Shown: positions 2,826 through 25,381 of the stretch, one piece after another
Layout: the number at the start of each line of letters is the position of its first letter
Numbering within the stretch: the stretch's first letter is position 1
From: Octopus sinensis
Lineage: Eukaryota
NCBI RefSeq assembly: GCF_006345805.1
Contig: NW_021834076.1
Span: 1 to 27,121, forward strand
Reading direction: 5' to 3'
DNA: 27,121 nt
Translations under genes and position numbers: made by a program
The notes under the pieces: generated by a model
Told to the model about the DNA's origin: nothing
The model's database searches: none
What the model saw: the letters and a program-made list of their open reading frames with translations, nothing else

Positions 2826-3006
2826 GGGTTAAAATTTTGACACAAGGGCAGCCATTTGGCGGGAAGGGATGTGTCGATTACATCGACCCCAGTGACTGGT
2901 TCTTATTTTATCGACCCTGAAATTATGAAAGGCAAAGTTGACCTTGGGGGAATTTGAACTCAGAACGTAGCGACTAGCAAAATACCGCTAAGCATTTAAT
3001 CCGGCG
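2826..3006 (-). mobile_element. tRNA-derived SINE family A, diverged and 5'-truncated, with the alternative tail
   Basis: Reverse complement matches the body of 12878-13110 (TTCTGAGTTCAAATTCC...GTCAACTTTGCCTTTCAT...GGGTCGAT). The tail (CCCTTGTGTC) resembles 13230-13275. Confidence 0.8.
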
Positions 3007-3515: not shown

Positions 3516-4322
3516 GGTTCTTTTCCTTTTGAGCGGCAGATGTCAACACAATTTCTAGTTAACTAAACACTTTTAAACTTCGTATACTGGTAGAATGTGT
3601 TTATAAAACATCATTTTCGCTTGCTTTTATTGAGAAAATTCTATAGTTTGTAAGATATTTCGTCTGAAAATCCGAACATTTCGGCAATTTTAACCAATCG
3701 ATTACCTCCTTTTAAGCAAGCAACATTTGCTGCGTCTAAAACTGAGACAACATCCTGTAACTAACCCTCAGCCTCCCCCTAACCCTAACCATAATTTTTT
3801 TTCTTAATTGTTAAATTAATTTAATTGTTACGCGTGTAAAAAAACTAAAGCAATGGAAAATATTTTAAACAATTAACATACAAAATAATTCTATAATTTT
3901 ATACACACGCTTTCCGTACGTATACGGAAAGCGTGTATTACGGAAAGCGCGTGTATAAAATTATAGAATTATTTTGTATGTTAATTGTTTAAATAATTTT
4001 CCATTTAATTGTTACACGCGTAACAATTAAATTAATTTAACAATTAAGAAAAAAAATTTAGGGTTAGGGTTAGGGTTAGGGGGGTTAGGGTTAGTTACAG
4101 GATGTTGTCTCAGTTTTAGACGCAGTAAATGATTTTAGCTCAAAAGAGAGCATAGGATAGGTTAAAATTCGAAAAATTAAACTACGTTAAACAAACAAAT
4201 TACAATTTTCTCAAGAAAGCCAAGAGAAAAAACTGTTTTATTTTGACACATTCTACCAGTATACGAAGTTTTAAAGTGTTTAGTTAACTAGAAATTGTCT
4301 GCCGTTCAAAAGGAAAATATCC
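3516..4322. mobile_element. Foldback/MITE DNA element: about 800-bp imperfect palindrome with internal (CCCTAA)n/(TTAGGG)n
   Basis: Termini GGTTCTTTTCCTTTTGAGCGGCAG and CTGCCGTTCAAAAGGAAAATATCC; arms are reverse complementary to a centre at about 3905-3945; flanks CTATTCCTC / CTATCCTC form a degenerate TSD. Confidence 0.9.
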
Positions 4323-5067
4323 CTATCCTCGCATATATTCGTTAGCTTTTTCTTGAAGCTTAATGCTTTGGCACTTCCGTGATAACAGTGGCCATGGTTT
4401 AATGATGTCTCGGAAATCAACTGATGAGAAAAATCCGCCGAGAAGCCGGGTAATTTTAGGTGGAGATCCATGATCAGTCCAAACAGACTATAAGTGTTGC
4501 ATCGTTTCTCTCAGCGTATACCCACAGAAATGTAACTGAAGAAGAGTACATTACGTACACATTCAATGAAAGTAACAGCTTGTGAATAGGTAAAATATCC
4601 CTAAGAGTTACTCTGATAGTACTGCTTCTACATGTGAAATGTACCGGGGAGCCACAAGATATCCAAACCTTTGAAAATAAGAAAAGCTAGGGAAACACTC
4701 CAATGAAAACATCCCTCAGTTGTTGAAAAGAAAACGAAAGGAGTATTATTTACTGAGAATATCAATGTCGCACCTAGATTAGGGAAAAAAGAGAACATTT
4801 ATCACGAACTAAATTGGAACATAAAAGTCTTGTGTGCTGGGATATAGATTTTCATATGCACTTATTATCGTAAGTGCATTGCGAAAGGTAACAAGAGAAG
4901 AAAAGGCACACGCCAAATTGAAGTAATTAATGAGGAGGTGAATTTGCAAAACATCTGCTTTGTCGAGAATCTACGAAATGCACATAATTGCATGTTTCTA
5001 GATGGCATAAACTTATACGTAACAAGGTAATCAAGCATACAAACACATATTCACATATACTCATCCA

Positions 5068-5369
5068 TATATGTATATATATTGTATGTATGTATGTATG
5101 TATGTATATGTATGTATGTATGTATGTATGTATATAGGTAAAGGCAAAGATAGACACACACACACACAGATGTAAATAGCCATACAAACAATGCATAATA
5201 CATTGGTGCAAAATGGAAGTATAATTTGTTCGCCATTCATGCCGTTCAATAATTATATATATATATATGTATGTATATATATGTATATATATCATTATTA
5301 TTATTATTATTATCATTATTATTATTATTATTATTATCATTATTATCATTATTATTATTATCATTATTA

Positions 5370-5709: not shown

Positions 5710-5977
5710 TATATAAATACATATATATAAATACATATATACATACACACAAAAGAAGGAAGTGGGAGGTGAAGACAAACAGATATGTACGTCTATATAT
5801 AATATATATATATTATATATATATATACATAGAGAGAGAGAAAGGGATATATAAATATAAATATAACTATATATGTATATATATATGTATATATATATAT
5901 ATATATACATACATATATAAATACATACATACACACAGAAGAAGGAAGCGGGAGACAAAGACAAACATATATGTACA

Positions 5978-6030
<53 letters not shown>

Positions 6031-6053
6031 GTATATATATATATATATATACG

Positions 6054-6090
<37 letters not shown>

Positions 6091-6190
6091 CGAAGGAGGG
6101 AGAGAAAAGGATATATAAATATAAGTAATATATATATATATATGAATATATACATATATATATATAAATATATACATATATATATATATC

Positions 6191-6228
<38 letters not shown>

Positions 6229-6238
6229 ATATATATAT

Positions 6239-6291
<53 letters not shown>

Positions 6292-6296
6292 GTGTA
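5653..6296. repeat. (TA)n-rich tract containing a duplicated non-microsatellite module
   Basis: AGAAGGAAG.GGGAG...AAGACAAACA.ATATGTAC.TCT occurs at about 5753 and about 5940, each followed later by (GA)n-AAA.GGATATATAAATATAA. Confidence 0.85.
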
Positions 6297-6599
6297 TATC
6301 CTTACGTTTACCAACTTCAACATCATAAAATCACATTAACCTGGAAAATCACGCACACAATGCCATATCGAGGACTGCTTTATTGTTATATTGTAATAAT
6401 AGGATGTATGATGTTTCCAAATCTATCCAAGAATATGCTTATTCAGTATCTTGTATAGTGTGATACAGCAAATAATCGTAACGCTGTACATATGGTTTTA
6501 CTCTGTAAAGTTGCAAGCGTAATAATATGATAATACAATTTTAGGTAGAATAACTTTCCAAACAATGGCAATTCTCTTGTGTGTTCGTATATTATACAT

Positions 6600-7199: not shown

Positions 7200-9132
7200 A
7201 ACTATTCAACCATTATATTTAAGTTGAATAGTTGTTCTGGCGATCTCATGTGAAGAACCGAGGAGAGGTAAAAGAAAAAAACAGCACAGATTTTCGTGCC
7301 TCCTAAAAATTTGTGAGAATTGCCGTTTTGGGGGAGTGTCTTTGCCTCCGAAGATTGAACGACTTGTACAACAGTTTATGTGGAAGTTGGGTTCCAGTTG
7401 TGGAGATCCGGGTTCGACCTTGGCCGGGAGTACCTAATGGACGGAAGATTTTTCTTTTGCTGTTTTTGAACAATTGATTTTCTTGCTTCTAAACTTTTTT
7501 GACTTTCTTTTTTCGTGAATTGTTTTCTTTTTTCTTCCTTCCATTGTATTGGGACTTCCCTTTGATTTCTTTCTTTTTCTTCTTCTTTCTATTAAAGTTT
7601 TATTTTGATCTATCTTCGAACTTTTATTACAAAAAAAACATGGCAATGAAAACCGACAATGTTTTAGAGTGGGAAATGGTACCACCCAAATAGTGGTTGA
7701 AAGACCTTGAGGAGAGGACGGTGGTGTTGAGGACTTACTCCAAGTCGCTCGACACCATAGCCCTATTTGAAAAGATTGTAACTGAAAAGAAGTTGGTAGA
7801 GGAGAAAAAAATACTCAACAGTGAGGCTGCTATTTGACACTCCTCAAGAGGCTCGCAAATTTGTGAGCCAGCCCTTAGACGGCAAAGAAATTTTGTTTCT
7901 TCGCACCCATTGTGGAAAGAGGTTGACAAGAGCTTGGCTTTGCGGGTTGCCACCCGTAATGTAGCCCGAGTGGATAGAGCAGACTATCCCCCGGGGTCTG
8001 GGTGGCAGCGGAGCTAAGCTCCTAAATGTGAAAAATTTTCCTGCGGCTGATTGGGTTAGCTGTTTTGACCCTGTGGACCCAATCAGCCAATCTGGTTTTT
8101 CCAGAAAATGGCCGGGTGCAGGTACCCGGTGATTCTTCTGGGTCGCCTCACCAGGTGTCATCGGTGCCTGGAGCCTGGCCATATAAAGGAAAACTGCTCC
8201 CAGGAACAACGTAAGGTCCTGGAGCAGTTGGCCCTGGAACGAAGGCGGCCGAGGAGGCGGAGTACTCCTCAAAGAAGAGCTGCAAGAGTAAGAAGGTGAA
8301 CAACAATAGGTGCTCACCGAAGGAACCTAGGGATGAGGGAGGGGAGGCGAATCTCCTGGTTACGGAGGAGATTCACCACCACCCTCAGATGAGAAGAACT
8401 AAAAGAGGAACATTGCCGGCAGTCGTTGGCATAGTACCGGAATGTCCCGGAACCTCTTCGGTAGGGGCTGTGCCACCGGTAGGAGAAAAGACACCGTCGG
8501 TGGGATTTGTGCCGCCGACGGTAGAAGTGACTACTTCGTCCCCGGAGGAAGACGAATTATTGGTCTTCTTCTTCTTCTTCTTCTTCATAGGTGGAGAGGT
8601 GGAGGTATTGGAAAAGCAACTTAACGGAGTACCTTTAGCCTTCACACGGGATCCTGAATGGCCTCCACAGATAGCTGTGGAGGTCACAACGTTACTCGTG
8701 TTGCGTACGCTGCAGGTAACCAATGAGGAATATCGCTTGTGGCTGGGCGACGCCGACACGGCACTCACTTTGTGCTTGTATGAGGCGTGGGTGATGGCGG
8801 AGGATTGGGTCACAAGCGATGTTGGGGAGGAATATGGATAAGAGGTTGAAAAGCCTCAGTGTTATTGAAAGTTCCTAGTTGGGAAAAAATGGTAACAGGC
8901 TTAGTTCCTCATTTTGTTATTGAATATCGTGAACAATGTAAGAGGTGTGTTGCCCCATGAATAATATAAGACTTCAATGTTATCGAGAAATAAAACGATC
9001 GGCGGGCTTCGCTTTTTCACCCCATTAATCATCATTTTCGTTTTTCATTTCATATAACATTATGTCTGTGTCCAGCCCTCAGCTTCCTTTCTCTATATAA
9101 GGCATTTGTGGCCAATATAATGAAATAAAGAA
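7200..9132 (+). mobile_element. Non-autonomous ORF1-only non-LTR element (HAL1-like architecture), decayed
   Basis: Higher-GC block with a leader, a disrupted reading frame from about 7640 to 8841 containing a CX2CX4HX4C knuckle, then about 290 bp of UTR ending AATAAAGAA. The tail resembles the LINE tail at 10059-10099. No EN or RT motifs seen. The 5' border is approximate. Confidence 0.6.
7640..8841 (+). pseudogene. Disrupted gag/ORF1-like nucleic-acid-binding protein with a zinc knuckle
   Basis: CHRCLEPGHIKENC at 8156-8197, preceded by YPVILLGR and followed by a basic then P/S/T-rich region; in-frame stops and frameshifts. Confidence 0.65.
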
Positions 9133-9310
9133 GCTTGCTTCCGGATTCCGTCTGTCTGCATGGCACCTTCGGCAACTGTCTTCTACTATAGCCGCGGGCC
9201 AATCAAAGCTTTGTGAATATACTTTTAGTCGGAAACTGAAAGAAGCCCTCCTGTATGTGATTGTGTGTGTGATTTTGTGTCGTGAATGTATATTTGTATT
9301 ATTGTCTGTG
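9133..9310 (+). mobile_element. Diverged fragment of SINE family B
   Basis: TGGCACCTTCGGCAACTGTCTTCTACTATAGCC...CGGAAACTGAAAGAAGCCC matches 24240-24331. Confidence 0.8.
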
Positions 9311-9926
9311 TGACCGTCTGTCTCTTATAAGTATGTGTGTATGTATTATGTACAAATGTATGTATCTATCTATTTTTCTATTTATCTATCTATGTGTATA
9401 AAGCGAAACATATCGGCAGAAATTTCTCAATACTGAAAACACAGTAAAATATCAGATTTCAATGAAAAATAAATTCACATCCTCTTTCTTCCACCGAATA
9501 AGGATGTAAAATGGCAAGATGTTTCGTGATCACCGGATGCATTAATCATGGGAAGCAATGAACTCTGATGAGATGTAGCTTGCTTTTAAGTTTGGTTTCT
9601 GGGATGTGAATGGATAATCCATATGACCGTTAACTCTCACATATATGTCAAAATGAATAAGCAGATCCTCGCATAAATGTTAGACCTGACAAAGAAACAA
9701 GGAAGATGGACGGATAAGAAAGAGGAAGGAGAAGACATGTGGAAGAAGCAGAAAAACAAAATCCAGAAAATAATAAGGGTAAGGAGGGGAGAGCAAATAA
9801 GATGATGCATAGTTCGAAAACGACAAAGAATATGGGTTCGTAACAGAGAATATGCGTATAAAATACAAATATATGCACATGGAGACACATGTACCCAATC
9901 TACGCATAAATATATACACATAAACA

Positions 9927-9959
9927 CAGATAGATCGATAGGGAGATAGATAGATAGAC

Positions 9960-10056
<97 letters not shown>
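9927..10056. repeat. (GATA)n microsatellite
   Basis: Direct reading of the sequence. Confidence 0.95.
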
Positions 10057-10145
10057 TGTTTCTTTATTAGCCACACAAGGCTGCACAGAGACGGGACAGA
10101 TTAAAAAGCTTTTCTTTATGGGGAGAAAAGAAGAAAAGAAAAAAA

Positions 10146-10245
10146 TAAGGGATCGTAAAAGGGAAAGGAAAGAAAAATAAGGGATCGTAAAAGGGAAAGG
10201 AAAGAAAAATAAGGGATCGTAAAAGGGAAAGGAAAGAAAAAAAAG
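10146..10245. repeat. About 32-bp tandem repeat, three copies, in the LINE 3' UTR
   Basis: TAAGGGATCGTAAAAGGGAAAGGAAAGAAAAA repeated three times. Confidence 0.9.
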
Positions 10246-10725
10246 GAAAGAAAAGAAAAAAACGATCAATAGGGATCGTGTATGACAGAAATGTCTTAAT
10301 GTAAAGTGTAAAGGGGGAAGCAGATAGGGTTTATCCATGGTAAGAAAAGCCTACGGAAAAGACCACGGTAACCTCGGTCAATAATGTCACCTGTTAACAC
10401 ATTTGTTTGCAAGTAGATAACCCTCTGTTTTAAATTTTTCCGGGTTCATAGGATTATGCTCAAGGTGGCTTCGTCATTCATACGTGCCATCCTTGTTACA
10501 TTCACCCATCTTTTTTAGAAACATTCGCTAGAAAAACTTGCCTCTCTACTCTCACATTCCTTTTCAAGTGATACTTGAAGAAGTTGATGAGAGATTGACC
10601 AGAGAGCAAAGTGTTTGTCTCCAACCCTTTCAGACGCGTTCAGTCATGGAGACGAGTTACGGGAAAGCGTGCCTCACAAACGGCGACCACACCTGTTCAC
10701 CGTCGTCTATGTAGAGCCTGAGATG

Positions 10726-11754
10726 TCACGCGCTGAGACTGCGCATCATCAACCACGACATGCCTAGTCCTCCTTTTAACAGGTGTTGACAGTAAATGTA
10801 TCGCCTACCCATCGGGGCGCATCCTTTCCACAAGAAGCGAAAGACAATGCGCTCTAGTTTGGTGATGGTAGGGTCGGGACAAGGCACGACGGTCAGGTGG
10901 TAGTAGATGACGGACGCGATGTACTTGTACGCCACCTCCACCCGACATTTTAGGGACAGTTTCCCTTCGGCCCATTGCCGAATGAGAGTGACCTCCCTAC
11001 TCGTTATCTTGTTCCAGTTCTCCATTTGGATGTCCGGACCAAACCAGACCCCGAGCAACTCGACCGGACCGTCGGTCCAGCGTCCCACGACGGAGGCGCT
11101 GGTGGACGGCATGGGCTTGCTTCTCCAGGTGCCGAGCCGCAAGCCCAGTAACTTTTCCCGGTTGATTTTCGCTTCTGTCACTGCTTCGTACTTTTTCAGT
11201 GTCTCGCCGACCTGCTCGATGTGCTGGTGGCTAGACACTATGACGGTGACGTCGTCCGCATATGCAAACACGCTCGTCCCGCACCCCAATTCTCGCGGGA
11301 TGCCCCTCAAAGTTGCCAGCTTCCGCAATAATGGCTCGAGAGTCAATACGTAGATAAGCGACGAGAGGAGGCATCCCTGAAGGACCGAAAGTGCAATGTC
11401 GAAAGGTCTTGATAGATATCCATTTACGCGAATTACCGAAGGGATACCTCTGTACAAAGCGGCTATCCAGCCGCGGAAGACGGGACCGAAACCAGTCGCT
11501 CTGAGGACAGCCTCCAAGTATCGATGGTCTACCCTATCGAAAGCTTTCGATTGATCCAAATTGGTCAGGGCCCCACCCATGCCAGGTTCCTTAACTACCC
11601 TGTCTATGATGTAGCGCATCAGATGGAGGTTCTCATGGATGCTCCGGCCCGGCACGGCAAACATTTGCGCCTTGTCGACCAGTTTGTCGATGACAAGCGC
11701 CAACCTCTCAGCTAACACCTTGACCAAATGTTTCAAGTCTGCATTAAGTAGAGT
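10726..11754 (-). pseudogene. Non-LTR reverse transcriptase domain (ORF2 fragment)
   Basis: Part of the 422-aa ORF. The first roughly 80 aa of that ORF are microsatellite and flank read-through; no endonuclease domain is present. Confidence 0.9.
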
Positions 11755-11870
11755 ACAGACAGACAGGTAGATTGAGAGACAGACAGACTGAAAAGCAGGC
11801 AGATAGATAGATAGATAGATACATACATACATACATACATACATACATACATACATACATACATACATAC
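11755..11870. repeat. (GACA)/(GATA)/(CATA)n microsatellite
   Basis: Direct reading of the sequence. Confidence 0.9.
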
Positions 11871-12877
11871 GGTTATTGATCATTACATATATTATGAATA
11901 CGTTGTTAGTATACATTTCACACACGCAGAAAACTCCAGGCATACGCGAACGCATACTAGAACAAGGACCGCACAAACTGGCTGAAGGATGCATTTACAT
12001 GTTCGGGTAATAATATTCAAGTCTTAAGAAAAAGGGGAAAAGTGAGCTTTAAGAGCGTAATGAAGCAGAGATGATGGTCGTGACGCGTTGTTTCAAAGAT
12101 TTTTTTTCAAAGTTTCGATAATGAAACTTAATCTAAAATAATATATTTAATATAATTTTAAAAAGATAAGTCGCGTTAACAGTGAGAATGACTACAACAA
12201 AGCGCGTGAACTTACAAATATATCTAGTTTAATCGTACAGAACTGATAGATGAATGGCTTAAAACCTGTAGAAATCCGGAAGGATACGAATAGAAATGAA
12301 AAAGTCTTTATCAACGAGAACAAAATGTTGAAGTAAATGGTTTTTATCGAGTTTTAGCATTGAAAAAGTGTCAAACAGAAAATGGATAACGTAATAAATT
12401 ATCAAAAATTTTGAAAATGGTATGTGATTTTATTGTGATTCAATATATTCCATTTTGCTGATGCTGTTCAAAAAGTTCAGATTACATAACACATGAGGCA
12501 GTGAAAGATTAGAAATATAAAAAATAAAGATGAGAGAAAAAATAGGAAACGAACGAAAAAGAAAAACCACCTAAGTGAAATCTGCAAAACGGTTTTTTTC
12601 TTTTCTGTGTTCGAAACAATATATTTTTCAAAACAAAGCAGAAGCAAAATGCTAGCTTCCTTTCCGCTCAATTATTACCATAAGAGCTGTGTTCGGATGG
12701 GTTCGCGTATTCTGGAATAGTCTATTATGTTTGAAAAGGAGTTCAAGACGATTCTTTCGAAAGGAAACATATTCGAATATTCTAATGAAAATTTTTTGGT
12801 AGACAGATAAAAGTCTTCTCATACGTGAAAAGTTATGTCTTAAATATATTTTCCGTTACATTAATGCACGCCTTCTA

Positions 12878-13277
12878 GGGCGGCGAGCTGGCAGGGTCGT
12901 TAGCACGCCGGGCGAAATGTTTAGCGGTATTTCGTCTGCCGCTACGTTCTGAGTTCAAATTCCGCCAAGGTCGACTTTGCCTTTCATCCTTTCGGGGTCG
13001 ATTAAATAAATACCAGTTACACACTGGGGTCGATATAATCAACTTAATCCGTCTGTCTCTCCTTGTTTGTCCTCTCTGTGTTTAGCCCCTTATGGATAGT
13101 AAAGAAATAGGTATTTCGTCTGTCTTCACATTCTGAGTTCAAATTCTGCCGAGGTTGACTTTGCCTTTCGTCCTTTCTGGGTCGATGAAATAAGCACCAT
13201 TTACGCACTGGGGTCGATATAATGGAGTAGTCCCCTTACCCAAAAATTTTCAAGGCCTTGTGCCTAGAGTAGAAATA
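12878..13277 (+). mobile_element. Dimeric SINE family A: full monomer (12878-13110) plus a headless monomer with a different tail
   Basis: A-box-like GAGCTGGCAGGG and B-box GAGTTCAAATTCC; body repeated from 13110; degenerate TSD ATTAATGCACGCCTTCTA / ATTAATACACTTTTTCTA. Confidence 0.88.
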
Positions 13278-13825
13278 ATTAATACACTTTTTCTAAATGT
13301 TGCAGCTGTCGATTCACGCTGTCATTATTTTTTCCCTTTTTTAAATTTAAACTGCATTACTTTACAAGGGCTTTTAAAATTAGTTTTGATTCATATTCAA
13401 GTGGGTTTATTTCTACACTTATGACTGACTTACACGTGCAAGTTGTTAAAAGTTATTTCCTTTATCTTTTTTATTGTTGTAACGTTACCTTATTAATTTT
13501 CGTCGGGTTCTTTTTTCTTCTTTTGCCTGTTGATTGATTTTGTTATTAAATCATTTATCTCTAGATCATCATTGGTTTTCCTTAATTAATTCGTATGCCA
13601 TTTTTAGATATTTTGTAGATCAAGTTATCATTACGATTTCTCTATCGTGTTATTCCCCTAAGCTTGATATTCTCAACGAATGAAGTGGTTCTGGTACTGC
13701 TAATATTAGTCTGCTTTCCCATGTCTTTAGAAAGCTTCTCTAAATTGTTATCCGTTTCGTTAATTAATGTTAATAATACAACGATGTAGCGAAATCATAG
13801 AAAGAAAGTATACAATGAATAACCA

Positions 13826-13867
13826 CTCACACACACAAACACATACACACACACACAAACACACACA

Positions 13868-13901
<34 letters not shown>

Positions 13902-13985
13902 AACACACACACAAACACACACACAAACACAAACACAAACACACTCACAAACACACACACACACAAACACACACACACATACACC
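13826..13985. repeat. (CA)n/(CACAAA)n microsatellite
   Basis: Direct reading of the sequence. Confidence 0.95.
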
Positions 13986-13993
13986 TACACGTA

Positions 13994-14300
13994 AAAATCT
14001 TCTTTGATCATGGATGACCACGGGATTGCACCTAGAAAGTTACCCTCCAAGGCACAAGTCCAGACAAGATTCATCATGGAAAGCCAGCAGTCACCCATGT
14101 ATACCAGCAACCAGTGTTGTCCAAGGGAAAGGCAAAGGCCGATACAGCTTGGCACCAGTGACGTTGCAACTGATTCTTATAGCAGAGTGAACTAGAGCAA
14201 CCTAAAATAAACTTCCTCGCTCATACAGACCAGTCCCGGAACTGAACTCACTGCCATATTATTGTCAGCGCAATGTTCTAACCACTGACCTACGTGTCTT
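13994..14300 (-). mobile_element. Diverged tRNA-derived SINE (family C)
   Basis: The minus strand starts with A-box-like TAGGTCAGTGGTTAG and B-box-like GAGTTCAGTTCC; about 300 bp, non-coding. Confidence 0.65.
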
Positions 14301-14358
14301 AACACATACATTTACACACACACAAACAACCACACACAATTATATATATATATATATA

Positions 14359-15372
14359 CAGGGTGCAGGGAATAAACTGTCGTCTAAATTAAGCAAAAGG
14401 GAAAATAACACTGACATCTCATTTTAAGAGATTTATTTACCAAAATTACATAAAAATATATTGGAAAACGAATGAGTAAGTTTATTGAATAAAATCGCCA
14501 TTGGCTTCAACCACAGCCTCCAGACAACGTTGGAATCTACAATTCTTCTGGGAAGTCTCCTTAAGTCGATGAAGGCTGCTATAACCCTGCCTTCAGTTCA
14601 TATTTGGTGTTGCAAGGAGTTTTGTTGGTCTCTCGCTCAACTGCGCCCTACGCATAATAATCAAGGCGGTTGTCGTCTAGGGAGTTAGGTGGCCAGATGT
14701 TAGGGGCGACGTGGTCGTAGAAATTGCCTGACAGCCATGACTGGGTTCTCCTGCTTGTGTGGGATGGTGCAGAGTCCTGTTGTCGGACATAGGATCTTCC
14801 AGCATCCAACCTGTTGACCCAAAACAGTACTACCTCTTCCAGGCAATAGATGTAGACTTCCGTGTTCAATCTGAGGTCATGTGAGAAGATGAATGGAGGC
14901 CCTTTCTCATCTTGTATGAGGAATACCGAATCATGCACTACTTGCTTGAAAACAAACTCAAACATCCCCATGCCTTTGGTGATGGACCTGATTGACTTGG
15001 ACGGATAGCCTGGATCTCACCAACAAATACAAGAGATCTTTTCTTATCAGAACGACCAGAGTGAGTTTTCCTCGCTACCGGACATTCATATTCTCCATGA
15101 GACGCATCTTTCCGAATTATCTGCACTGTCCACAGATTGACACCTAAACACTCTAAAATGCACGTATTGGAGCTTCCGGCGAAAATGCCAAGCAGTACAG
15201 CATGTCATTTCCAGGTTTCTGGCAGAGTGAATTGCGTCTTGGTGCTCTTTTTCTTCACATACGGTGCCCAAATGACCCTGCTATACTGTGTAGTCGACAA
15301 AATCAAAATCAAGCAAAGTGCATGCGCGAAATTAAAAATATAAAATGGTGACAATTTACCCATCGTACCCTG
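14359..15372 (-). mobile_element. Tc1/mariner superfamily, maT (DD37D) remnant with both TIRs
   Basis: TIRs CAGGGTGC... / ...GTACCCTG with TA on the left. QQDSAPSH...WPPNSLDDNRLDY has 37 residues between the second and third Asp. Frameshifted and internally deleted. Confidence 0.88.
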
Positions 15373-15395
15373 TGCGCACACACACATTTATATTT

Positions 15396-15475
<80 letters not shown>

Positions 15476-15574
15476 GCAGGCAGACAGACAGACAGACAGG
15501 CAGACAGACAGACAGACAGGCAGACAGACAGACAGACGTACGGACGGACGGACGGACGGATGGATGGATGGATG

Positions 15575-15646
<72 letters not shown>
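15396..15646. repeat. Compound tetranucleotide microsatellite GATA-GACA-GGCA-GGAC-GGAT-GATA
   Basis: Direct reading of the sequence. Confidence 0.95.
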
Positions 15647-16174
15647 TACAATCAATTCAAGGATGTCAAGTCCTCATTGGGGATTAAATAATCGAACATT
15701 TCCACTGACTAATCGCTATCATATACGAAGAAAGTCTCAATGATATGTTAGGTATTATCATAATAATACATATTTCTATAGTAAGGTATATATTAATACA
15801 TATAGTAATACATATTGTAACACATAATGGAGAATTATAGATGCATAATTAAACTTCTTAGTACTTCGCTTGCTTCCTTTCAAGAAATATGTTAATCTTT
15901 GTTGTATAAGCTCACAAACCCTCATGAGATTATGCCCCACATAGTTGAAACTGAGGACCAAGTCTTAATATTTGACGCTACCCAAAATGCTTAGAATTGC
16001 GAATTACCTACGGTCATGAATGGAAACATATACGTAGGTTTTTGGCATCTGCCATTTCTTTTTTTTTTTTTGAGCTTTTTAATTTATAATTTCTTTTGTT
16101 GTTTTTTTTAAATTTCAGCCTCATAAATAAATCAATTATACGTCCATAATTCGCCATTTTCTTTCTTTCATTAT

Positions 16175-16178
<4 letters not shown>

Positions 16179-16226
<48 letters not shown>
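16179..16226. repeat. (TA)n microsatellite
   Basis: Direct reading of the sequence. Confidence 0.95.
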
Positions 16227-16229
<3 letters not shown>

Positions 16230-16948
16230 TGGCTATTGTGTAGTCTATATTAGCGTGTAGTTTCTTTTGAATTGATTTAAATATTTATTTTTGAAATGAA
16301 ACACACCTTGAAATGGAATATTACTCACGCATTTCATGTGATTATAATTCATCAATATTCAACGACACACTCCACTCATAACCTATTTTCAGTTTACATT
16401 TTGTTAATATAAATTTTGTTTTCACATGGTTTTCCACAGAAATTTTCAATTATCATTATATATCTCCATTATTAAAGATGTTTTTTTTTTTTTTTTTCTG
16501 CGAGCTAGTTTCTCTTTTAATTATGTGATACATTTTAACTCTTTGTAGTATTTCCTTGTTTGTTTGGCAATGGATATTGTAAATGTTAACACGCGTTTCA
16601 ACTAATCTGGCGTCGTGTTTGACAATACGAAGTGCATTTAATAAATCAACGGACGTTTCGCACAAACTGAAAACCATAAACCATCACCAAATCTTCAGGT
16701 AGAATTAATATGACATTATATCGGTGATTACTAGAGTTAAAGTTTGAATTAAAGTATATATCATTCCAGTAAACATTCTACTGTGTACCGTTTTCCTTGA
16801 CACGTGATAGAATCAGTGCTGGTCATTATTATTGCGAAGTGAACATCTTAACTATGCAGGCATACCTGAAAACACATACAAGTTCGGATTCGCTCATACA
16901 TATATACATACACACTCAAATATAGAACTCATACATATATGTAGTATA

Positions 16949-17185
16949 TATTTCTTTACTGTCCACAAGGGGCTAAACATAGAGGAGATAAACAAGGACA
17001 GACAAAGGGATCAAGTCGATTACATCGACCCCAGTGCGTAACTGGCACTTATTTAATCGACCGCGAAAAGATGAAAGGCAAAGTCGACCTCGGCGGAATT
17101 TGAACTCAGAACGTAACGGCAGACGAAATACGGTTACGCATTTCGCCCGGCGTGCTAACGTTTCTGCCAGCTCACCGCCTTTACT
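16949..17185 (-). mobile_element. Full-length SINE family A with an 18-bp TSD
   Basis: Reverse complement of 12878-13110; TSD ATACATATATGTAGTATA at 16931-16948 and 17186-17203. Confidence 0.93.
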
Positions 17186-17354
17186 ATACATATATGTAGT
17201 ATAGTCAACATCTCATGTGACTCAAAATTATCATGATAGCAAGTAAGGTACCAGAAAGTTTAGAATGTGTAATACTTGCAATATTTATGCTTTCAGTCGT
17301 CTTACGTTCTGAACACAAATGTTACCCAGTTTCTACCTTGATTCCATATACCCA

Positions 17355-17589
17355 TTTCTTTACCACCCACAAGGGGCTAAACACAGAGAGGACAAACAAG
17401 GACAGACAAACGGATTAAGTCGATTACATGGACCCCAGTGCGTAACTGGTACGTAATTAATCGACCCCGAAAGGATGAAAGGGAAAGTCGATCTCGGCGG
17501 AATTTGAACTCAGAACGTAGCTGCAGAGACGAAATACTGCTAAGCATTTCGCCCGGCGTGCTAACGATTCTGCCAGCTCGCCGCCCTTA
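17355..17589 (-). mobile_element. Full-length SINE family A with a 14-bp TSD
   Basis: Same family; TSD ATTCCATATACCCA at 17341-17354 and 17590-17603. Confidence 0.93.
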
Positions 17590-18465
17590 ATTCCATATAC
17601 CCAGGATCCGTCTGCGTGTTGTTTACAGTCGATTCAGAGGAACGTTTCTTTCGAGCGAGTCGATTTGGCGGCTCGATTTTGTTCATCATTTGAATTACAT
17701 TTCATTCAAGTATGTAATTAACACGCTGAGAAACATCACAACATTCTGTTTCTTATATAAATAGTAATATTTTATTCACCAAAACAAATCGATATTCTGG
17801 TTACAACATGCTAGTTATATTGCTACAATTGACAACAAACTATATCCAAATTTTCATATATATTATAAAATTCATAAGCATTAAACGAAGAGTCTATTTT
17901 GAAACGTTATCTGCTATTTAAAATTTAACATCAGTTTATTATGTTTCAACATATAAAACATTATGCCCTGTCACAACTCTGTTTCCCCCGACTCTGCATT
18001 ATCATACTGATACGACAAAGACACAACTCAACTGCGACATGAGAAAAAGAGCGAAAAATGTTTAGAGTGTTAGATTATATAGACAAATTGGTTAGTGCAA
18101 GACTGAAAGTTTGGATGTCAACGGCTTGTGTGCAATGTAGACAGGAGACTAGTTTCTTAAAAATAGAAATGAAGTGAAAAAACAGTAAATCAGAAGAAAA
18201 CGTTTGTAGAAACGGAGCTTTACAACAGACGGGAGATTAGAGAGGTAATGTGAGAAAATAAAGGCATAGTGAATGAGCAAATTATAGACCGAACGACTGA
18301 AACAAAAAGGAAAGCGAAAGGGTGCAAGAGGGAGAAATTTCTGTATGGTCTGGAAACTGGGAATGTTGCAAGATGAAGTGAACACCTAATGGCAGAATAT
18401 CATTTCAGTAAAATTTATCAAACACAAAGAGAGCAAGGAAAAATACGATGTAGGCTCGTGGATTG

Positions 18466-19935: not shown

Positions 19936-20345
19936 GCGCTGGAGTGGCTGTGTGATAAGTAGCTTGCTAACCAGCCACATGGTTCTGAGTTAAGTCCCAC
20001 TGCGTGGAATCTTGGGCAAATGTCTTCTGCTATAGCCTCGGGCCGACCAAAACCTTGTGAGTGGATTTGGTAGACGGAAACTGAAAGAAGCCTGTCGTAT
20101 ATATGTATATATATATGTATGTGTATGTATATGTTTGTGTGTCCGTGTTTGTCCCTCTAGCATTGCTTGACAACCGATGCTGGTGTGTTTGCGTCCCCGT
20201 CACTTAGCGGTTCGGCAAAAGAGACCGATAGAATAAGTACTGGGCTTACAAAGAATAAGTCCCGGGGTCGATTTGCTCGACTAAAGGCGGTGCTCCAGCA
20301 TGGCCGCAGTCAAATGACTGAAACAAGTAAAAGAGTAAAAGAGTA
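19935..20345 (+). mobile_element. Full-length tRNA-derived SINE family B with an internal microsatellite
   Basis: A-box TGGCTGTGTGA; highly similar to 24173-24587; ends in (AAAAGAGT)n. Confidence 0.92.
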
Positions 20346-24172: not shown

Positions 24173-24587
24173 GGCGCAGGAGTGGCTGTGTGGTAAGTAG
24201 CTTGTTTACCAACCACATGGCTCTGGGTTCAGTCCCACTGCGTGGCACCTTGGGCATGTGTCTTATACTATAGCCTCGGGTCGACCAAAGCCTTGTGTGT
24301 GGATTTGGTGGACGGAAACTGAAAGAAGCCCGTCGTATATATGTATATATATATGCGTGTGTGTGTTTGTATGTCTGTGTTTGTCTCCCTAGCATTGCTT
24401 GACAACCGATGCTGGTGTGTTTACGTCCCCGACACTTAGCGGTTCGGCAAAACAGACCGATAGAATAAGTACTAGGCTTACAAAAGAATAAGACCCGGGG
24501 TCGAGTTGCTCGATTAAAGTCGGTGCTCCAGCATGGCCGCAGTCAAATGACTGAAACAAGTAAATGAGTAAAAGAGAAAGAGAGTAC
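24173..24587 (+). mobile_element. Full-length SINE family B
   Basis: A-box TGGCTGTGTGG, B-box GGTTCAGTCCC; matches 19935-20345. Confidence 0.92.
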
Positions 24588-25381
24588 AAATATTGATGGT
24601 CGCAGTGGTGTTTGCTGCATCATCATTATTTCATACAACTACTTGTCTGCTTTTCACATTACGCCGAGAATACGTAAACTATGGATTGTTATCAAGTTTG
24701 CCCAAAACGCATTCAGTACTTTGTACGTATACGAATTTTATTTTTGTGTAGCAGTTTTTTTTAATGTATTCAGTTATAAATAAAGTGGTAGTAATTGTAA
24801 TTTTGCATGAGGCACTTTCTGCCTGAGATCATTTATCTCTGTAAAACTTTCTTCTCCAAAAACAGAATTAGATTCTCTTTAAAAATTCGTTTCACCATCT
24901 TGTTGATATCCGAAATCAGAGAGAGAGAGAGAGAGGGGGAGGGGGAGGAAGAGTTTTGTATTTTAAGCATCTGCCCGTTTCCCATCATTCTTTCAGGTAT
25001 TGTGCGTGTTCATCACATTCAAAGGAGCCTTAAAATGTTAACTGATGTCGCTATAGTAGTGCATTCCTGTAGGGGGAAATTGTTTGGAAACACGAGGGCT
25101 TGTTGCTGAGGTTAAACCGAATTTATCTATAACAGCTGTCGCTTCACTTTATTTAAGCCGCTAGAATCAATTTGCTGTTACTTCACCATGAAAATTTACA
25201 GAGTTACAGAAGCTTGATAGCGTTCACAAATAACATCTATATCAGTAGTGTGTGCATTAAATCAGCCTATTCAAACAATATTCAATATGTTTTAATACAC
25301 AAAAGAATATTGCATTGCTAAAGTTACTCAAATACTTGGATTTCGACTTATACTTCTAAAGCTCAACTACTAGTTACTTCT

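What the first reader, a model, noticed from the sequence alone, without database searches (positions are those of the whole stretch)
9063..17397. LINE, ORF1-only element and SINE share one 3' stem-loop tail: a three-partner system
Seen: LINE end (10059-10099, -) TGTCCCGTCTCTGTGCAGCCTTGTGTGGCTAATAAAGAAA; SINE A end (17355-17397 -, also 13068-13107 and 16951-16992) TGTCCTCTCTGTGTTTAGCCCCTTGTGGGTGGTAAAGAAA; ORF1-only element end (9063-9132) TCTGTGTCCAGCCCTC[insert]TGTGGCCAATA[insert]AAGAA. LINE and SINE both form a GCC...GGY hairpin. SINE copies have 14-18 bp TSDs. Known: stringent LINEs recognise a 3' stem-loop and partner SINEs borrow it; this is well documented for L2, CR1 and RTE and less so for L1/Tx1. 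Inference: this Tx1-type RT mobilises both the SINE and the ORF1-only element.
Basis: partly seen in the sequence, partly recalled or inferred. Interest (0 to 1): 0.75.

Follow-up and report, generated by a model that had tools for sequence, protein, structure and literature searches.

The report
Shared LINE tail in three retroelements
A LINE, a SINE and an ORF1-only element in this octopus-like genome carry the same short hairpin-bearing 3' module, so the SINE likely borrows this LINE lineage's copying enzyme. The ORF1-only element sits inside a second SINE and spreads through that SINE's end instead.

Summary

**LINE and SINE A.** The LINE (window 10059-11757, minus strand) belongs to the L1/Tx1 group. 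Its 3' tail is family-wide, with 5,384 exact genomic copies. SINE A ends in a homologous tail: 38 of 47 bases match, at the exact 3' ends of both elements, and 0 of 2000 shuffles score as well.

**ORF1-only element.** It also carries this module, most clearly in sister families (scores 42-44 against a shuffle mean of 10.3 ± 2.0). The 4-bp hairpin shows compensatory base changes between element classes.

Two things weaken the "one RT, three partners" reading:
1. Position 9132 is not a free end. The ORF1 segment sits inside a second SINE (SINE B), flanked by a 17-18 bp duplication. 5'-truncated copies lack the SINE B head, so the composite moves as one unit through SINE B's own 3' end.
2. The LINE inserts into (TATC)n microsatellites (24 of 30 copies). 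SINE A never does (0 of 28). SINE A ends in TAGGTA with duplications that start GGTA: 38,155 junctions against 16 of the LINE type.

The shared tail module is shown directly. Mobilisation by this particular LINE is inferred for SINE A, and is at most historical for the ORF1 element.

Side findings: the ORF1-in-SINE composite is a large lineage under purifying selection, and SINE A forms tandem arrays flanked by a single duplication.

The parts
10059..11757 (-). 5'-truncated copy of an L1/Tx1-group LINE. It covers RT to the 3' end and has an internal deletion of about 555 nt.
   Evidence: Pfam RVT_1, E 9e-24. blastn against a full-length copy matches LINE positions 4101-5226 and 5781-6383. The full-length copy L079 has ORF1 with a CCHC motif and a 1145-aa ORF2 with Exo_endo_phos, RVT_1 and zf-RVT domains.
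10059..10108 (-). LINE 3' tail module: ...CTGTCCCGTCTCTGTGCAGCCTTGTGTGGCTAATAAAGAAA, with stem AGCC/GGCT.
   Evidence: Conserved in all 29 other copies fetched. 5,384 exact genomic matches of the last 22 nt including the CAT junction.
9925..10058 (-). (TATC)n microsatellite joined to the LINE 3' end through CATA; this is the LINE's preferred target.
   Evidence: 24 of 30 unbiased LINE 3' ends have at least 4 TATC units downstream, and 11 of 19 determinable 5' junctions do likewise. Full-length and truncated copies are flanked on both sides.
11758..11880 (-). Degenerate (ATCT/GTCT)n microsatellite upstream of the LINE's 5' truncation point.
   Evidence: Read. The same arrangement is seen in L079, L080 and L081.
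17355..17592 (-). SINE A copy 1, with a TSD of TGGGTATATGGAAT(T/C)AAGG.
16951..17183 (-). SINE A copy 2, with an 18-bp TSD TATACTACATATATGTAT. Its tail stem is mutated (GGAC).
12877..13107 (+). SINE A copy 3, the first unit of a two-unit array.
13108..13285 (+). 5'-truncated second SINE unit, starting at GGTATTTCG, with a different tail (AGGC-CTTGT-GCCT...AGAAATA). One TSD, ATTAAT(G/A)CAC, flanks both units.
7290..9132 (+). ORF1-only (HAL1-like) segment. It is 5'-truncated and its ORF is broken; it carries a CCHC knuckle near 8150-8200.
   Evidence: Homology to other copies begins at 7291-7372. The family's ORF1 is 27% identical to the LINE ORF1 over 138 aa, E 4e-18.
9088..9132 (+). Inner LINE-type tail module of the ORF1 element: TCTCTATATAAGGCATTTGTGGCCAATATAATGAAATAAAGAA. 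The family stem is GGCC/GGCC.
   Evidence: Sister families align to the LINE tail over all 38 nt, scores 42-44, 0 of 2000 shuffles. Stem covariation is shown.
9128..9248 (+). SINE B portion of the composite, from SINE B nt 22 onward; deleted and decayed in this copy.
24174..24595 (+). Free-standing SINE B copy, used as the reference for the composite's ends.
19936..20343 (+). Second free-standing SINE B copy.

Best explanation
A LINE of the L1/Tx1 group, SINE A and an ORF1-only element all carry a homologous 3' module of about 40-50 nt. It contains a 4-bp hairpin that keeps pairing through compensatory changes. This module is likely the recognition signal for the LINE lineage's reverse transcriptase.

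**SINE A (inferred).** SINE A acquired the module and is, or was, copied in trans by this LINE lineage or a close sister. Where a copy lands is predicted to depend on pairing between the last bases of the RNA and the DNA 3' end that primes synthesis:
- The LINE RNA would end in (UAUC)n and land in (TATC)n.
- The SINE A RNA would end in UAGGUA and use primers ending in TACC.

**ORF1-only element.** It is a HAL1-like derivative of a distantly related LINE of the same group. It inserted by target-primed reverse transcription into SINE B, leaving a 17-18 bp duplication. It has since spread as a SINE-B-headed, SINE-B-tailed composite, which is predicted to be copied from SINE B's own 3' end by another, unidentified LINE.
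For: **Shown directly.**
- *Tail homology.* LINE against SINE A: 38 of 47 at both termini, 0 of 2000 shuffles. LINE against ORF1-element families L118 and L129: scores 42 and 44 against 10.3 ± 2.0, 0 of 2000. SINE A against L118: 26 against 10.5 ± 2.0, 0 of 2000.
- *The tail is family-wide.* All 29 other LINE copies fetched carry it, and there are 5,384 exact genomic matches.
- *Stem covariation within ORF1-element families.* 82 of 88 cells pair, against 82.9 ± 1.8% in shuffles. Pair types are U-A 18 / G-C 4, and C-G 14 / U-A 4 / U-G 2.
- *Stem covariation across six tail classes.* 91.3% of cells pair, against 68.2 ± 3.4%. Slid controls give 21-56%.
- *LINE type.* ORF2 has APE, RT and zf-RVT domains. 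The best solved relative is human L1 ORF2p, E 4e-53.
- *Composite structure.* Five full-length copies of the window's family, and three of six diverse families, begin with the SINE B head. The remaining three diverse families were not resolved at the 5' end. SINE B resumes from nt 22 in six of six window-family copies mapped, in five of the six diverse loci (one only from nt 80) and at all 20 junctions found among 24 diverse loci.
- *The composite moves as a unit.* 8 of 9 truncated copies have unrelated upstream flanks without the SINE B head. Short TSDs flank whole composites.
- *ORF1 relationship and selection.* ORF1 is homologous to the LINE ORF1 (E 4e-18). It is under purifying selection, with dN/dS 0.21-0.39 in 15 of 15 family pairs.
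- *The GGTA preference likely arises at priming, not at cleavage.* SINE A units in arrays join at the same GGTA as the target junctions, inside arrays flanked by a single TSD.
- *Overlapping ages.* LINE copies are 71-98% identical to a young copy. SINE A copies are 87-95% identical to the window copy.
Against: - *Terminal bases and targets differ sharply between LINE and SINE A.* The LINE tail followed by TAGG occurs 0 times, against 5,384 with CAT. The SINE A tail followed by CATATC occurs 16 times, against 38,155 with TAGGTA. 24 of 30 LINE copies lie in (TATC)n, against 0 of 28 SINE A copies.
- *No LINE-SINE A chimaera was seen.* None of 28 LINE 5' junctions carried a SINE A tail.
- *Hairpin folding energies are mostly indistinguishable from shuffles*.
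- *The class-level covariation set is biased.* I picked it with motifs that contained both stem strands, and it amounts to only about five independent lineages. Two of its classes (A2, A3) show no significant similarity to the LINE tail.
- *The hairpin's conservation inside the composite is unexplained.* If the composite is copied from SINE B's end, it is unclear why the hairpin stays conserved there.
- *The LINE that drives SINE B was not found*.
Confidence: 0.55

Rival explanations
1. One reading: one Tx1-type reverse transcriptase currently mobilises the LINE, SINE A and the ORF1-only element, each through the shared terminal stem-loop.
For: All three carry homologous tail modules. The stem covaries. 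Two of 29 ORF1-element copies (L041, L052) stop within 5 nt of the inner tail with no SINE B after it. These could be stand-alone insertions primed at that tail.
Against: In 26 of 29 copies the inner tail is followed by SINE B. A search for the inner tail followed by any base but G found only 3 hits, all composites with a point mutation. 8 of 9 truncated copies lack the SINE B head, so copying starts at SINE B's end. LINE and SINE A differ in their junctions and targets.
Confidence: 0.12
2. The tails are related by descent only. SINE A is driven by a different, still unidentified sister LINE whose RNA ends in ...AAAGAAAUAGGUA and whose endonuclease cuts before GGTA. The (TATC)n-specific LINE in the window is a cousin, not the partner.
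For: The junction types separate almost completely (0 against 5,384; 16 against 38,155) and so do the targets. Identity over the shared tail is only about 80%. A recent Octopus vulgaris repeat annotation lists 13 recently active L1-Tx1 families (PMC13282606, passages read), so sister families probably exist.
Against: No such LINE was seen in about 670 kb of held sequence. The LINE-type stem with a TAGG junction has 0 genomic matches. GGTA also marks the template-switch junctions inside SINE arrays, which points to priming and not to endonuclease specificity. 16 SINE A copies do carry the LINE-type CATATC junction, and 2-3 of the 12 inspected lie in (TATC)n.
Confidence: 0.28
3. The ORF1 element is a site-specific inserter that repeatedly targets one position of SINE B, as Tx1-clade elements target other transposons. 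On this view the composites are independent insertions and not one amplifying unit.
For: The two copies of the 17-18 bp duplication change together between families: GAAG...TCCC on both sides in the window's family, and GTAG...TACC on both sides in L117 and L120. This is easier to explain by at least two separate insertions at the same SINE B site. Both SINE B variants exist as free copies.
Against: 8 of 9 5'-truncated copies have unrelated upstream flanks without the SINE B head. All 29 window-family copies share the same SINE B variant. Whole composites have their own TSDs.
Confidence: 0.12
4. The similarity of the tails is chance or low-complexity resemblance.
For: The hairpin is only 4 bp and is not thermodynamically distinctive.
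Against: 0 of 2000 shuffles reach the observed alignment scores in three independent comparisons. The match lies at the exact 3' termini.
Confidence: 0.02

Closest known systems
Stringent LINE-SINE pairs with a common 3' tail (Ohshima/Okada model; for example eel UnaL2/UnaSINE1 and zebrafish L2 lines). General model as in passages of PMC3472496 and the abstract of PMC4176376; element names recalled.
   Same: The SINE's last 47 nt are homologous to the LINE's last 50 nt. A small stem-loop lies 10-25 nt from the end.
   Different: The last 4-6 bases and the insertion sites differ between LINE and SINE here. No assay exists. The stem is only 4 bp.
L1-clade stringent pairs: maize LINE1-1_ZM with ZmSINE2/3, and a green-alga pair (Ohshima 2012, PMC3472496; abstract and opening text read).
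   Same: A LINE of the L1 group that shares a structured 3' end with a SINE. [quoted passage not shown]
   Different: This is an animal (cephalopod-like) genome, and the LINE targets a microsatellite. A search of 7 of that paper's 8 supplementary files found no octopus entry; one file could not be searched.
Tx1-clade target-specific LINEs (Kibi and Koshi in (TC)n and (TTC)n; crocodilian Tx1 in (TTCC)n) and Tx1-Mar with SINEU (Kojima 2015, PMC4494074; passages read).
   Same: An APE-type LINE inserted inside a specific microsatellite. A SINE is assigned to a Tx1-type driver from genomic signatures alone.
   Different: In crocodilians the argument was a shared target. Here the tail is shared but the target is not. 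Tx1-clade membership was not tested by phylogeny.
ORF1-only non-autonomous LINEs: HAL1 (L1), HeT-A (Jockey) and Ag-Sponge (CR1) (Kojima 2018, PMC5786205, passage; PMC5753468).
   Same: The element encodes only an ORF1 homologue, keeps a LINE-type 3' module, holds many intact ORFs, and shows dN/dS below 0.4.
   Different: The ORF1 unit is embedded in a SINE and is bounded by that SINE's head and tail. The cited passage says a protein-coding non-autonomous LINE cannot be the source of a SINE, so a protein-coding unit that shares both ends with a SINE is unusual.

Membership tests
Stringent LINE-SINE 3'-tail partnership | The SINE 3' end is homologous to the LINE 3' end, at the terminus of both. 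| tested here: met
   38 of 47 identities, 0 of 2000 shuffles. The best whole-element match is terminus to terminus. The tail is family-wide in both elements.
Stringent LINE-SINE 3'-tail partnership | A conserved stem-loop in the shared tail. | tested here: inconclusive
   Compensatory changes are seen between classes. Folding z-scores are near 0, there are few independent events, and I selected the sequence set.
Stringent LINE-SINE 3'-tail partnership | The same integration signature (terminal repeat, target motif, TSD) in LINE and SINE. | tested here: not met
   LINE: CATA followed by (TCTA)n, with 24 of 30 copies in (TATC)n. SINE A: TAGGTA, with 0 of 28 in (TATC)n. Exact junction counts are 5,384 against 0 for the LINE and 38,155 against 16 for SINE A. 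TSD lengths are similar: 10-14 bp for the LINE and 13-19 bp for SINE A.
Stringent LINE-SINE 3'-tail partnership | Trans-mobilisation of the SINE by the LINE's protein. | not testable with these tools
   Needs a retrotransposition assay.
Stringent LINE-SINE 3'-tail partnership (ORF1 element as third partner) | The shared tail lies at the 3' terminus of the mobilised unit. | tested here: not met
   The tail is followed by SINE B nt 22 to the end in 26 of 29 copies and at 20 of 20 junctions found among 24 diverse loci.
Tx1 clade of non-LTR retrotransposons | ORF2 with an APE endonuclease, RT and a C-terminal zinc-binding motif; closest relatives in the L1 group. | tested here: met
   Pfam Exo_endo_phos, RVT_1 and zf-RVT. 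Human L1 ORF2p E 4e-53, against R2 at 3e-20.
Tx1 clade of non-LTR retrotransposons | The RT domain groups with Tx1 references in a phylogeny. | not tested
   No labelled reference sequences were available. The homology and atlas searches returned no clade names.
Tx1 clade of non-LTR retrotransposons | Target-sequence preference. | tested here: met
   (TATC)n lies on both sides of full-length and truncated copies.
HAL1-like ORF1-only non-autonomous LINE | Encodes an ORF1 homologue and no RT. | tested here: met
   ORF1 is 27% identical over 138 aa, E 4e-18. No ORF2 match lies inside the composites; the only strong ORF2 hit, in L115, lies 3 kb beyond the element.
HAL1-like ORF1-only non-autonomous LINE | The ORF1 is kept functional. 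| tested here: met
   Many open frames of 290-500 aa. dN/dS is 0.21-0.39 in 15 of 15 pairs.
HAL1-like ORF1-only non-autonomous LINE | Shares its ends with an identified parent LINE. | tested here: inconclusive
   The 3' module matches the window's LINE, but ORF1 is only 27% identical, there is no nucleotide similarity elsewhere, and no parent with an ORF2 was found.
tRNA-derived SINE (SINE A and SINE B) | A tRNA-like head with A and B boxes. | tested here: inconclusive
   A/B-box-like motifs are visible by eye. ARAGORN found no tRNA in the window, and Rfam found no tRNA match even at E ≤ 1.

The most novel reading that the evidence does not exclude
A protein-coding passenger rides inside a SINE. 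An ORF1 gene with its own LINE-type hairpin tail sits between the head and body of SINE B. This composite has diversified into many families: 12,959 first-look loci, with ORF1 down to 45% amino-acid identity between families. Throughout, ORF1 stays under purifying selection and the internal hairpin keeps pairing through compensatory changes. This would be a two-tailed non-autonomous retroelement that exploits two different LINE machineries, a Tx1-like one through the inner hairpin and another through the SINE B end. The same Tx1-like RT system would choose its integration sites by pairing the RNA's last bases with the primer. That would explain the (TATC)n targeting, the GGTA targeting and the tandem SINE arrays made in a single event.
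Probability: 0.3. Interest if true: 0.75.

Novelty: new variant of a known kind. Interest (0 to 1): 0.6.

Why it matters
Shared LINE-SINE tails are textbook for the L2, CR1 and RTE clades but rare for the L1/Tx1 group. A survey read here found 3 such SINEs among 58 pairs (PMC3472496).

Octopus-like genomes are about 12% SINE and 13% LINE (PMC13282606), and none of the full-text searches run here turned up a paper naming the drivers of these SINEs. A defined tail module with a covarying hairpin gives a directly testable recognition signal.

Two further points go beyond the finding as handed over:
- The ORF1-in-SINE composite challenges the view that protein-coding non-autonomous LINEs and SINEs are separate categories.
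- The junction data suggest that RNA 3'-end pairing with the primer, and not the endonuclease alone, sets target choice.

Tried and rejected
**Searches that found nothing**
- A stand-alone ORF1 element ending at the inner tail: the pattern gave 3 hits, all composites with a point mutation.
- A LINE carrying SINE B's tail, in about 670 kb of held sequence: 55 tails found, all SINE B.
- A LINE-type stem with the SINE-type TAGG junction: 0 genomic hits.
- Relatives of the LINE in metagenome contigs, sought in order to compare tails across species: 81 pattern hits, none confirmed.
- Earlier findings of this scan: nothing was held for this genome.

**Clade naming**
- The homology search listed 120 proteins with no clade names. 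The best hits were 76% identical and an Argonauta protein at 69%.
- The protein atlas returned only generic names.

**RNA and structure checks**
- tRNA and Rfam scans of the SINE heads found no tRNA match.
- Folding energies gave no signal for the hairpin.
- A second upstream hairpin in the ORF1 element (AGC...GCT) never varies, so it is uninformative.

**Other tests**
- TSDs of truncated composites: none clear in 6 of 6 old copies.
- LINE tail against the A2 and A3 SINE tails: not significant. Only the ORF1-element tail of family L118 resembles A3, at 14 of 16 positions, where the two mismatches are a compensatory flip.

**Explanation rejected**
- Nested insertion as the origin of the SINE arrays. 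The upstream flanks are not the host SINE's 5' half, and a single TSD flanks whole arrays.

Full report
**Setting.** The window is contig C10547 of a 2.72-Gb genome in 13,516 contigs. Its repeats look cephalopod (octopus-like). That is my reading and no tool named the organism. I checked the three claimed tails against other genomic copies of each element, because a single copy cannot show what belongs to the family.

**The LINE.**
- *Window copy.* It spans 10059-11757 on the minus strand and is 5'-truncated. It matches positions 4101-5226 and 5781-6383 of a full-length copy, so it also has an internal deletion. Its ORF has an RVT_1 domain.
- *Full-length copy (L079).* It carries an upstream ORF, an ORF1 with a weak CCHC hit (E 0.0024, below Pfam's cut-off), and a 1145-aa ORF2 with Exo_endo_phos, RVT_1 and zf-RVT.
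- *Relatives and group.* The best solved relative is human L1 ORF2p (E 4e-53); R2 proteins score only 3e-20. This places the element in the L1/Tx1 group. I could not test Tx1 against L1 by phylogeny, because the homology and atlas searches returned no clade names.
- *Abundance and age.* The family is large and partly very young. The RT search gave 40,104 first-look candidates with many equal top scores and open frames up to 1,246 aa. Thirty unbiased 3' ends are 71-98% identical to a young copy.
- *Outside context.* A 2026 repeat annotation of Octopus vulgaris lists 13 recently active L1-Tx1 families (PMC13282606, passages read).

**The LINE tail and its target.**
- *Tail.* All 29 other copies fetched end in ...CTGTCCCGTCTGTGTGCAGCCCTGTGTGGCTAATAAAGAAA, followed by CATA and a (TCTA)n run of variable length. 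The exact last 22 nt, including the CAT junction, occur 5,384 times.
- *The microsatellite is the target, not just a tail.* Full-length copies L079 and L080, two truncated copies in L081 and the window copy have (TATC)n on both sides.
- *Unbiased sample.* 24 of 30 copies have at least four TATC units within 44 nt downstream, and 11 of 19 determinable 5' junctions have the same upstream.
- *Insertions outside microsatellites.* These copies end in AAAGAAACATA(T) and have 10-14 bp duplications (L003, L007, L008, L009).
- *Comparison.* Microsatellite targeting is a known habit of Tx1-clade elements (Kojima 2015, PMC4494074, passages).

**SINE A.**
- *Copies.* Three copies lie in the window. Twenty-nine further copies are 93-95% identical to the first.
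- *Tail and duplications.* They end in ...GTCTGTCCTTGTTTGTCCTCTCTGTGTTTAGCCCCTTGTGGGTAGTAAAGAAA, then TAGGTA. The 13-19 bp duplications usually begin GGTA.
- *Match to the LINE.* The tail aligns to the LINE tail with 38 identities over 47 SINE bases, score 45 against 13.2 ± 2.5 for shuffles (0 of 2000). The best local match of the whole SINE to the whole 6.4-kb LINE joins their exact 3' ends. The core observation is therefore correct.
- *Mismatch in integration signature.* SINE A copies are never in (TATC)n (0 of 28). Genome-wide, the SINE A tail is followed by TAGGTA 38,155 times and by the LINE-type CATATC 16 times. The LINE tail is followed by TAGG 0 times.

**A clue that could reconcile the two signatures.**
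- *Arrays.* Fifteen of 29 SINE A copies are followed directly by one or more 5'-truncated SINE units that begin at the internal GGTATTTCG. These units carry several different tail types, and a single duplication flanks the whole array.
- *Examples.* One array has ten 184-bp units and one duplication. About a quarter of the first 100 listed junctions lie in such arrays (my count from the listing).
- *Inference.* The join is the same ...AAAGAAATA|GGTA as at genomic targets, yet no endonuclease cut is involved in a template switch. I infer that the GGTA preference arises when a DNA 3' end ...TACC pairs with a SINE A RNA that ends in ...UAGGUA.
- *Extension to the LINE.* By the same logic, a LINE RNA that reads through into its (UAUC)n flank would be drawn to (GATA)n primers.
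- *Status.* This would let one enzyme serve both elements, but it is inference. A sister LINE with a TAGGTA end remains a serious rival.

**The ORF1-only element is part of a composite.**
- *The 'end' at 9132 is internal.* In 26 of 29 other copies the sequence continues into a second SINE, SINE B, from its nt 22 to its end, about 400 nt further on. Free SINE B copies lie at 24174-24595 and 19936-20343.
- *5' end.* Full-length copies start with SINE B nt 1 to about 40. The ORF1 segment therefore lies inside SINE B, flanked by a 17-18 bp duplication (TAAGAAGCTTGCTTCCCA). This is the footprint of a target-primed insertion.
- *It moves as a unit.* Eight of nine 5'-truncated copies have unrelated upstream flanks without the SINE B head. 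Whole composites have their own short duplications.
- *Stand-alone forms are rare at best.* A search for stand-alone ends found none. Two of 29 copies (L041, L052) do stop at the inner tail and may be stand-alone insertions.

**The composite lineage is old and diverse.**
- *Size.* An ORF1 search gave 12,959 first-look candidates. Scored matches are 55-82% identical to the query, and many have open frames of 290-500 aa.
- *Architecture in diverse members.* All six diverse members fetched carry SINE B sequence downstream of ORF1, from nt 22 in five of them. In three the SINE B head was also seen about 700 bp upstream. Twenty of 24 diverse loci show the junction.
- *Selection on ORF1.* dN/dS between families is 0.21-0.39 in 15 of 15 pairs.
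- *Origin of ORF1.* It is homologous to the LINE's ORF1 (27% over 138 aa, E 4e-18), with no nucleotide similarity elsewhere.
- *Interpretation.* This is a HAL1-like, ORF1-only derivative of a distantly related LINE of the same group (compare Kojima 2018, PMC5786205, passage). It is unusual in being bounded by a SINE's head and tail.
- *Possible repeated founding.* The two copies of the duplication change together between families. This hints at more than one founding insertion at the same SINE B site.

**The inner tail is nevertheless a true homologue of the LINE tail.**
- *Sister families.* In families L118 and L129 it aligns to all 38 nt of the LINE tail, with scores 42 and 44 against 10.3 ± 2.0 (0 of 2000).
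- *Window's family and others.* In the window's family the score is 20 (2 of 2000). In three other families the similarity has decayed.
- *Correct alignment in the window.* The homologous stretch is about 9088-9132.

**The hairpin.**
- *Energies are uninformative.* For the LINE and ORF1-element segments, z runs from +0.2 to -1.4.
- *Covariation within ORF1-element families.* 82 of 88 cells pair, and two of four pairs show compensatory changes: U-A 18 / G-C 4, and C-G 14 / U-A 4 / U-G 2. Slid controls give 12-60%.
- *Covariation across classes.* Across LINE, SINE A, A', ORF1-element, A3 and A2 tails, 91.3% of 104 cells pair, against 68.2 ± 3.4% in shuffles. The outer pair reads U-A 11 / A-U 9 / G-U 2 / G-C 1. 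The third pair reads C-G 15 / G-C 9 / U-A 1 / U-G 1.
- *Caveats.* I picked those 26 sequences with motifs that contained both stem strands. They represent about five lineages. A2 and A3 are not significantly similar to the LINE tail. Between LINE and SINE A alone the stem bases are nearly identical, so that pair gives no covariation.

**Verdict.**
- *Shown.* The shared tail module is real, family-wide and probably structured.
- *Inferred.* That it serves as the recognition signal of this LINE lineage's reverse transcriptase follows from the established LINE-SINE tail model.
- *SINE A.* The partnership is plausible but unproven, because the junctions and targets differ.
- *ORF1 element.* The tail explains at most its founding insertion(s). 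Its spread runs through SINE B's end, which has its own 5-bp hairpin (CAGTC AAAT GACTG) and (GTAAAAGA)n repeats. The LINE that drives SINE B was not found.

**Literature.** Full-text searches turned up no paper describing this octopus LINE-SINE tail pair, the ORF1-in-SINE composite or the single-event SINE arrays. The 1994 paper on the octopus SINEs was not available to me, and one supplementary file of PMC3472496 could not be searched.

Noticed in passing
window 12877-13285 (+); L181 (G000:C1:8969700-8972400); L084-L110: SINE A forms head-to-tail arrays of one full or longer unit plus 5'-truncated units (184-bp period, up to 10 units here). The units join at ...AAAGAAATA|GGTATTTCG, and a single TSD flanks the whole array. 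This suggests repeated template switching in one retrotransposition event.
   Followed up: partly
window 13108-13285 (+), window 2840-3006 (-); L017, L095, L105, L085, L100, L101: The SINE A body occurs with at least four different tails: A, A' (GCCC-CCTGT-GGGC-AATAAAGAAATAA), A2 (GGGC-CTTGT-GCCT-AGAGTAGAAA..., often followed by (ATT)n) and A3 (TGGC-CTTGT-GCCA-AAATTTGAAACCAAT). Each has a 4-bp stem around a CTTGT-like loop. A3 resembles the ORF1-element inner tail with a flipped base pair (14 of 16).
   Followed up: partly
window 24174-24595 and 17355-17592; SINE A and SINE B share an internal core, CTGGGGTCGAT...TCGAC. This may be a common central domain of a SINE superfamily.
   Followed up: no
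L061-L066, L115-L138 (own genome): The ORF1-in-SINE-B composite is a large, diversified lineage: 12,959 first-look loci, with ORF1 down to 45% amino-acid identity between families and dN/dS 0.21-0.39. The two copies of its flanking 17-18 bp repeat change together between families.
   Followed up: partly
window 24530-24590 (+) and all SINE B copies: The SINE B tail has a perfect 5-bp hairpin, CAGTC-AAAT-GACTG, followed by GAAACAAGTAAAAGAGTAAAAGAG repeats. This looks like the tail of a different LINE clade. Its LINE partner was not found in the held sequence.
   Followed up: partly
window 10110-10260 (-): The 3' UTR of the window's LINE copy holds three tandem copies of a unit of about 33 bp (GGGATCGTAAAAGGGAAAGGAAAGAAAAATAA on the plus strand). 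Other copies have poly-T/C runs at this position.
   Followed up: no
window about 14480-15260 (-): A decayed transposase-like reading frame, which by eye looks like the C-terminal part of a Tc1/mariner-type transposase, lies between microsatellites.
   Followed up: no
window about 14000-14300 (-): Another short element with a tRNA-like start (...GGTCAGTGGTTAGAACATTGCGCTG...), flanked by (TG)n. It may be a third SINE family.
   Followed up: no
G000:C1:37459994-37460485, C1:31461995-31462276 (listing): LINE 3' tails recur 124-350 bp apart on the same strand. These are very short truncated LINE copies stacked in one microsatellite.
   Followed up: no
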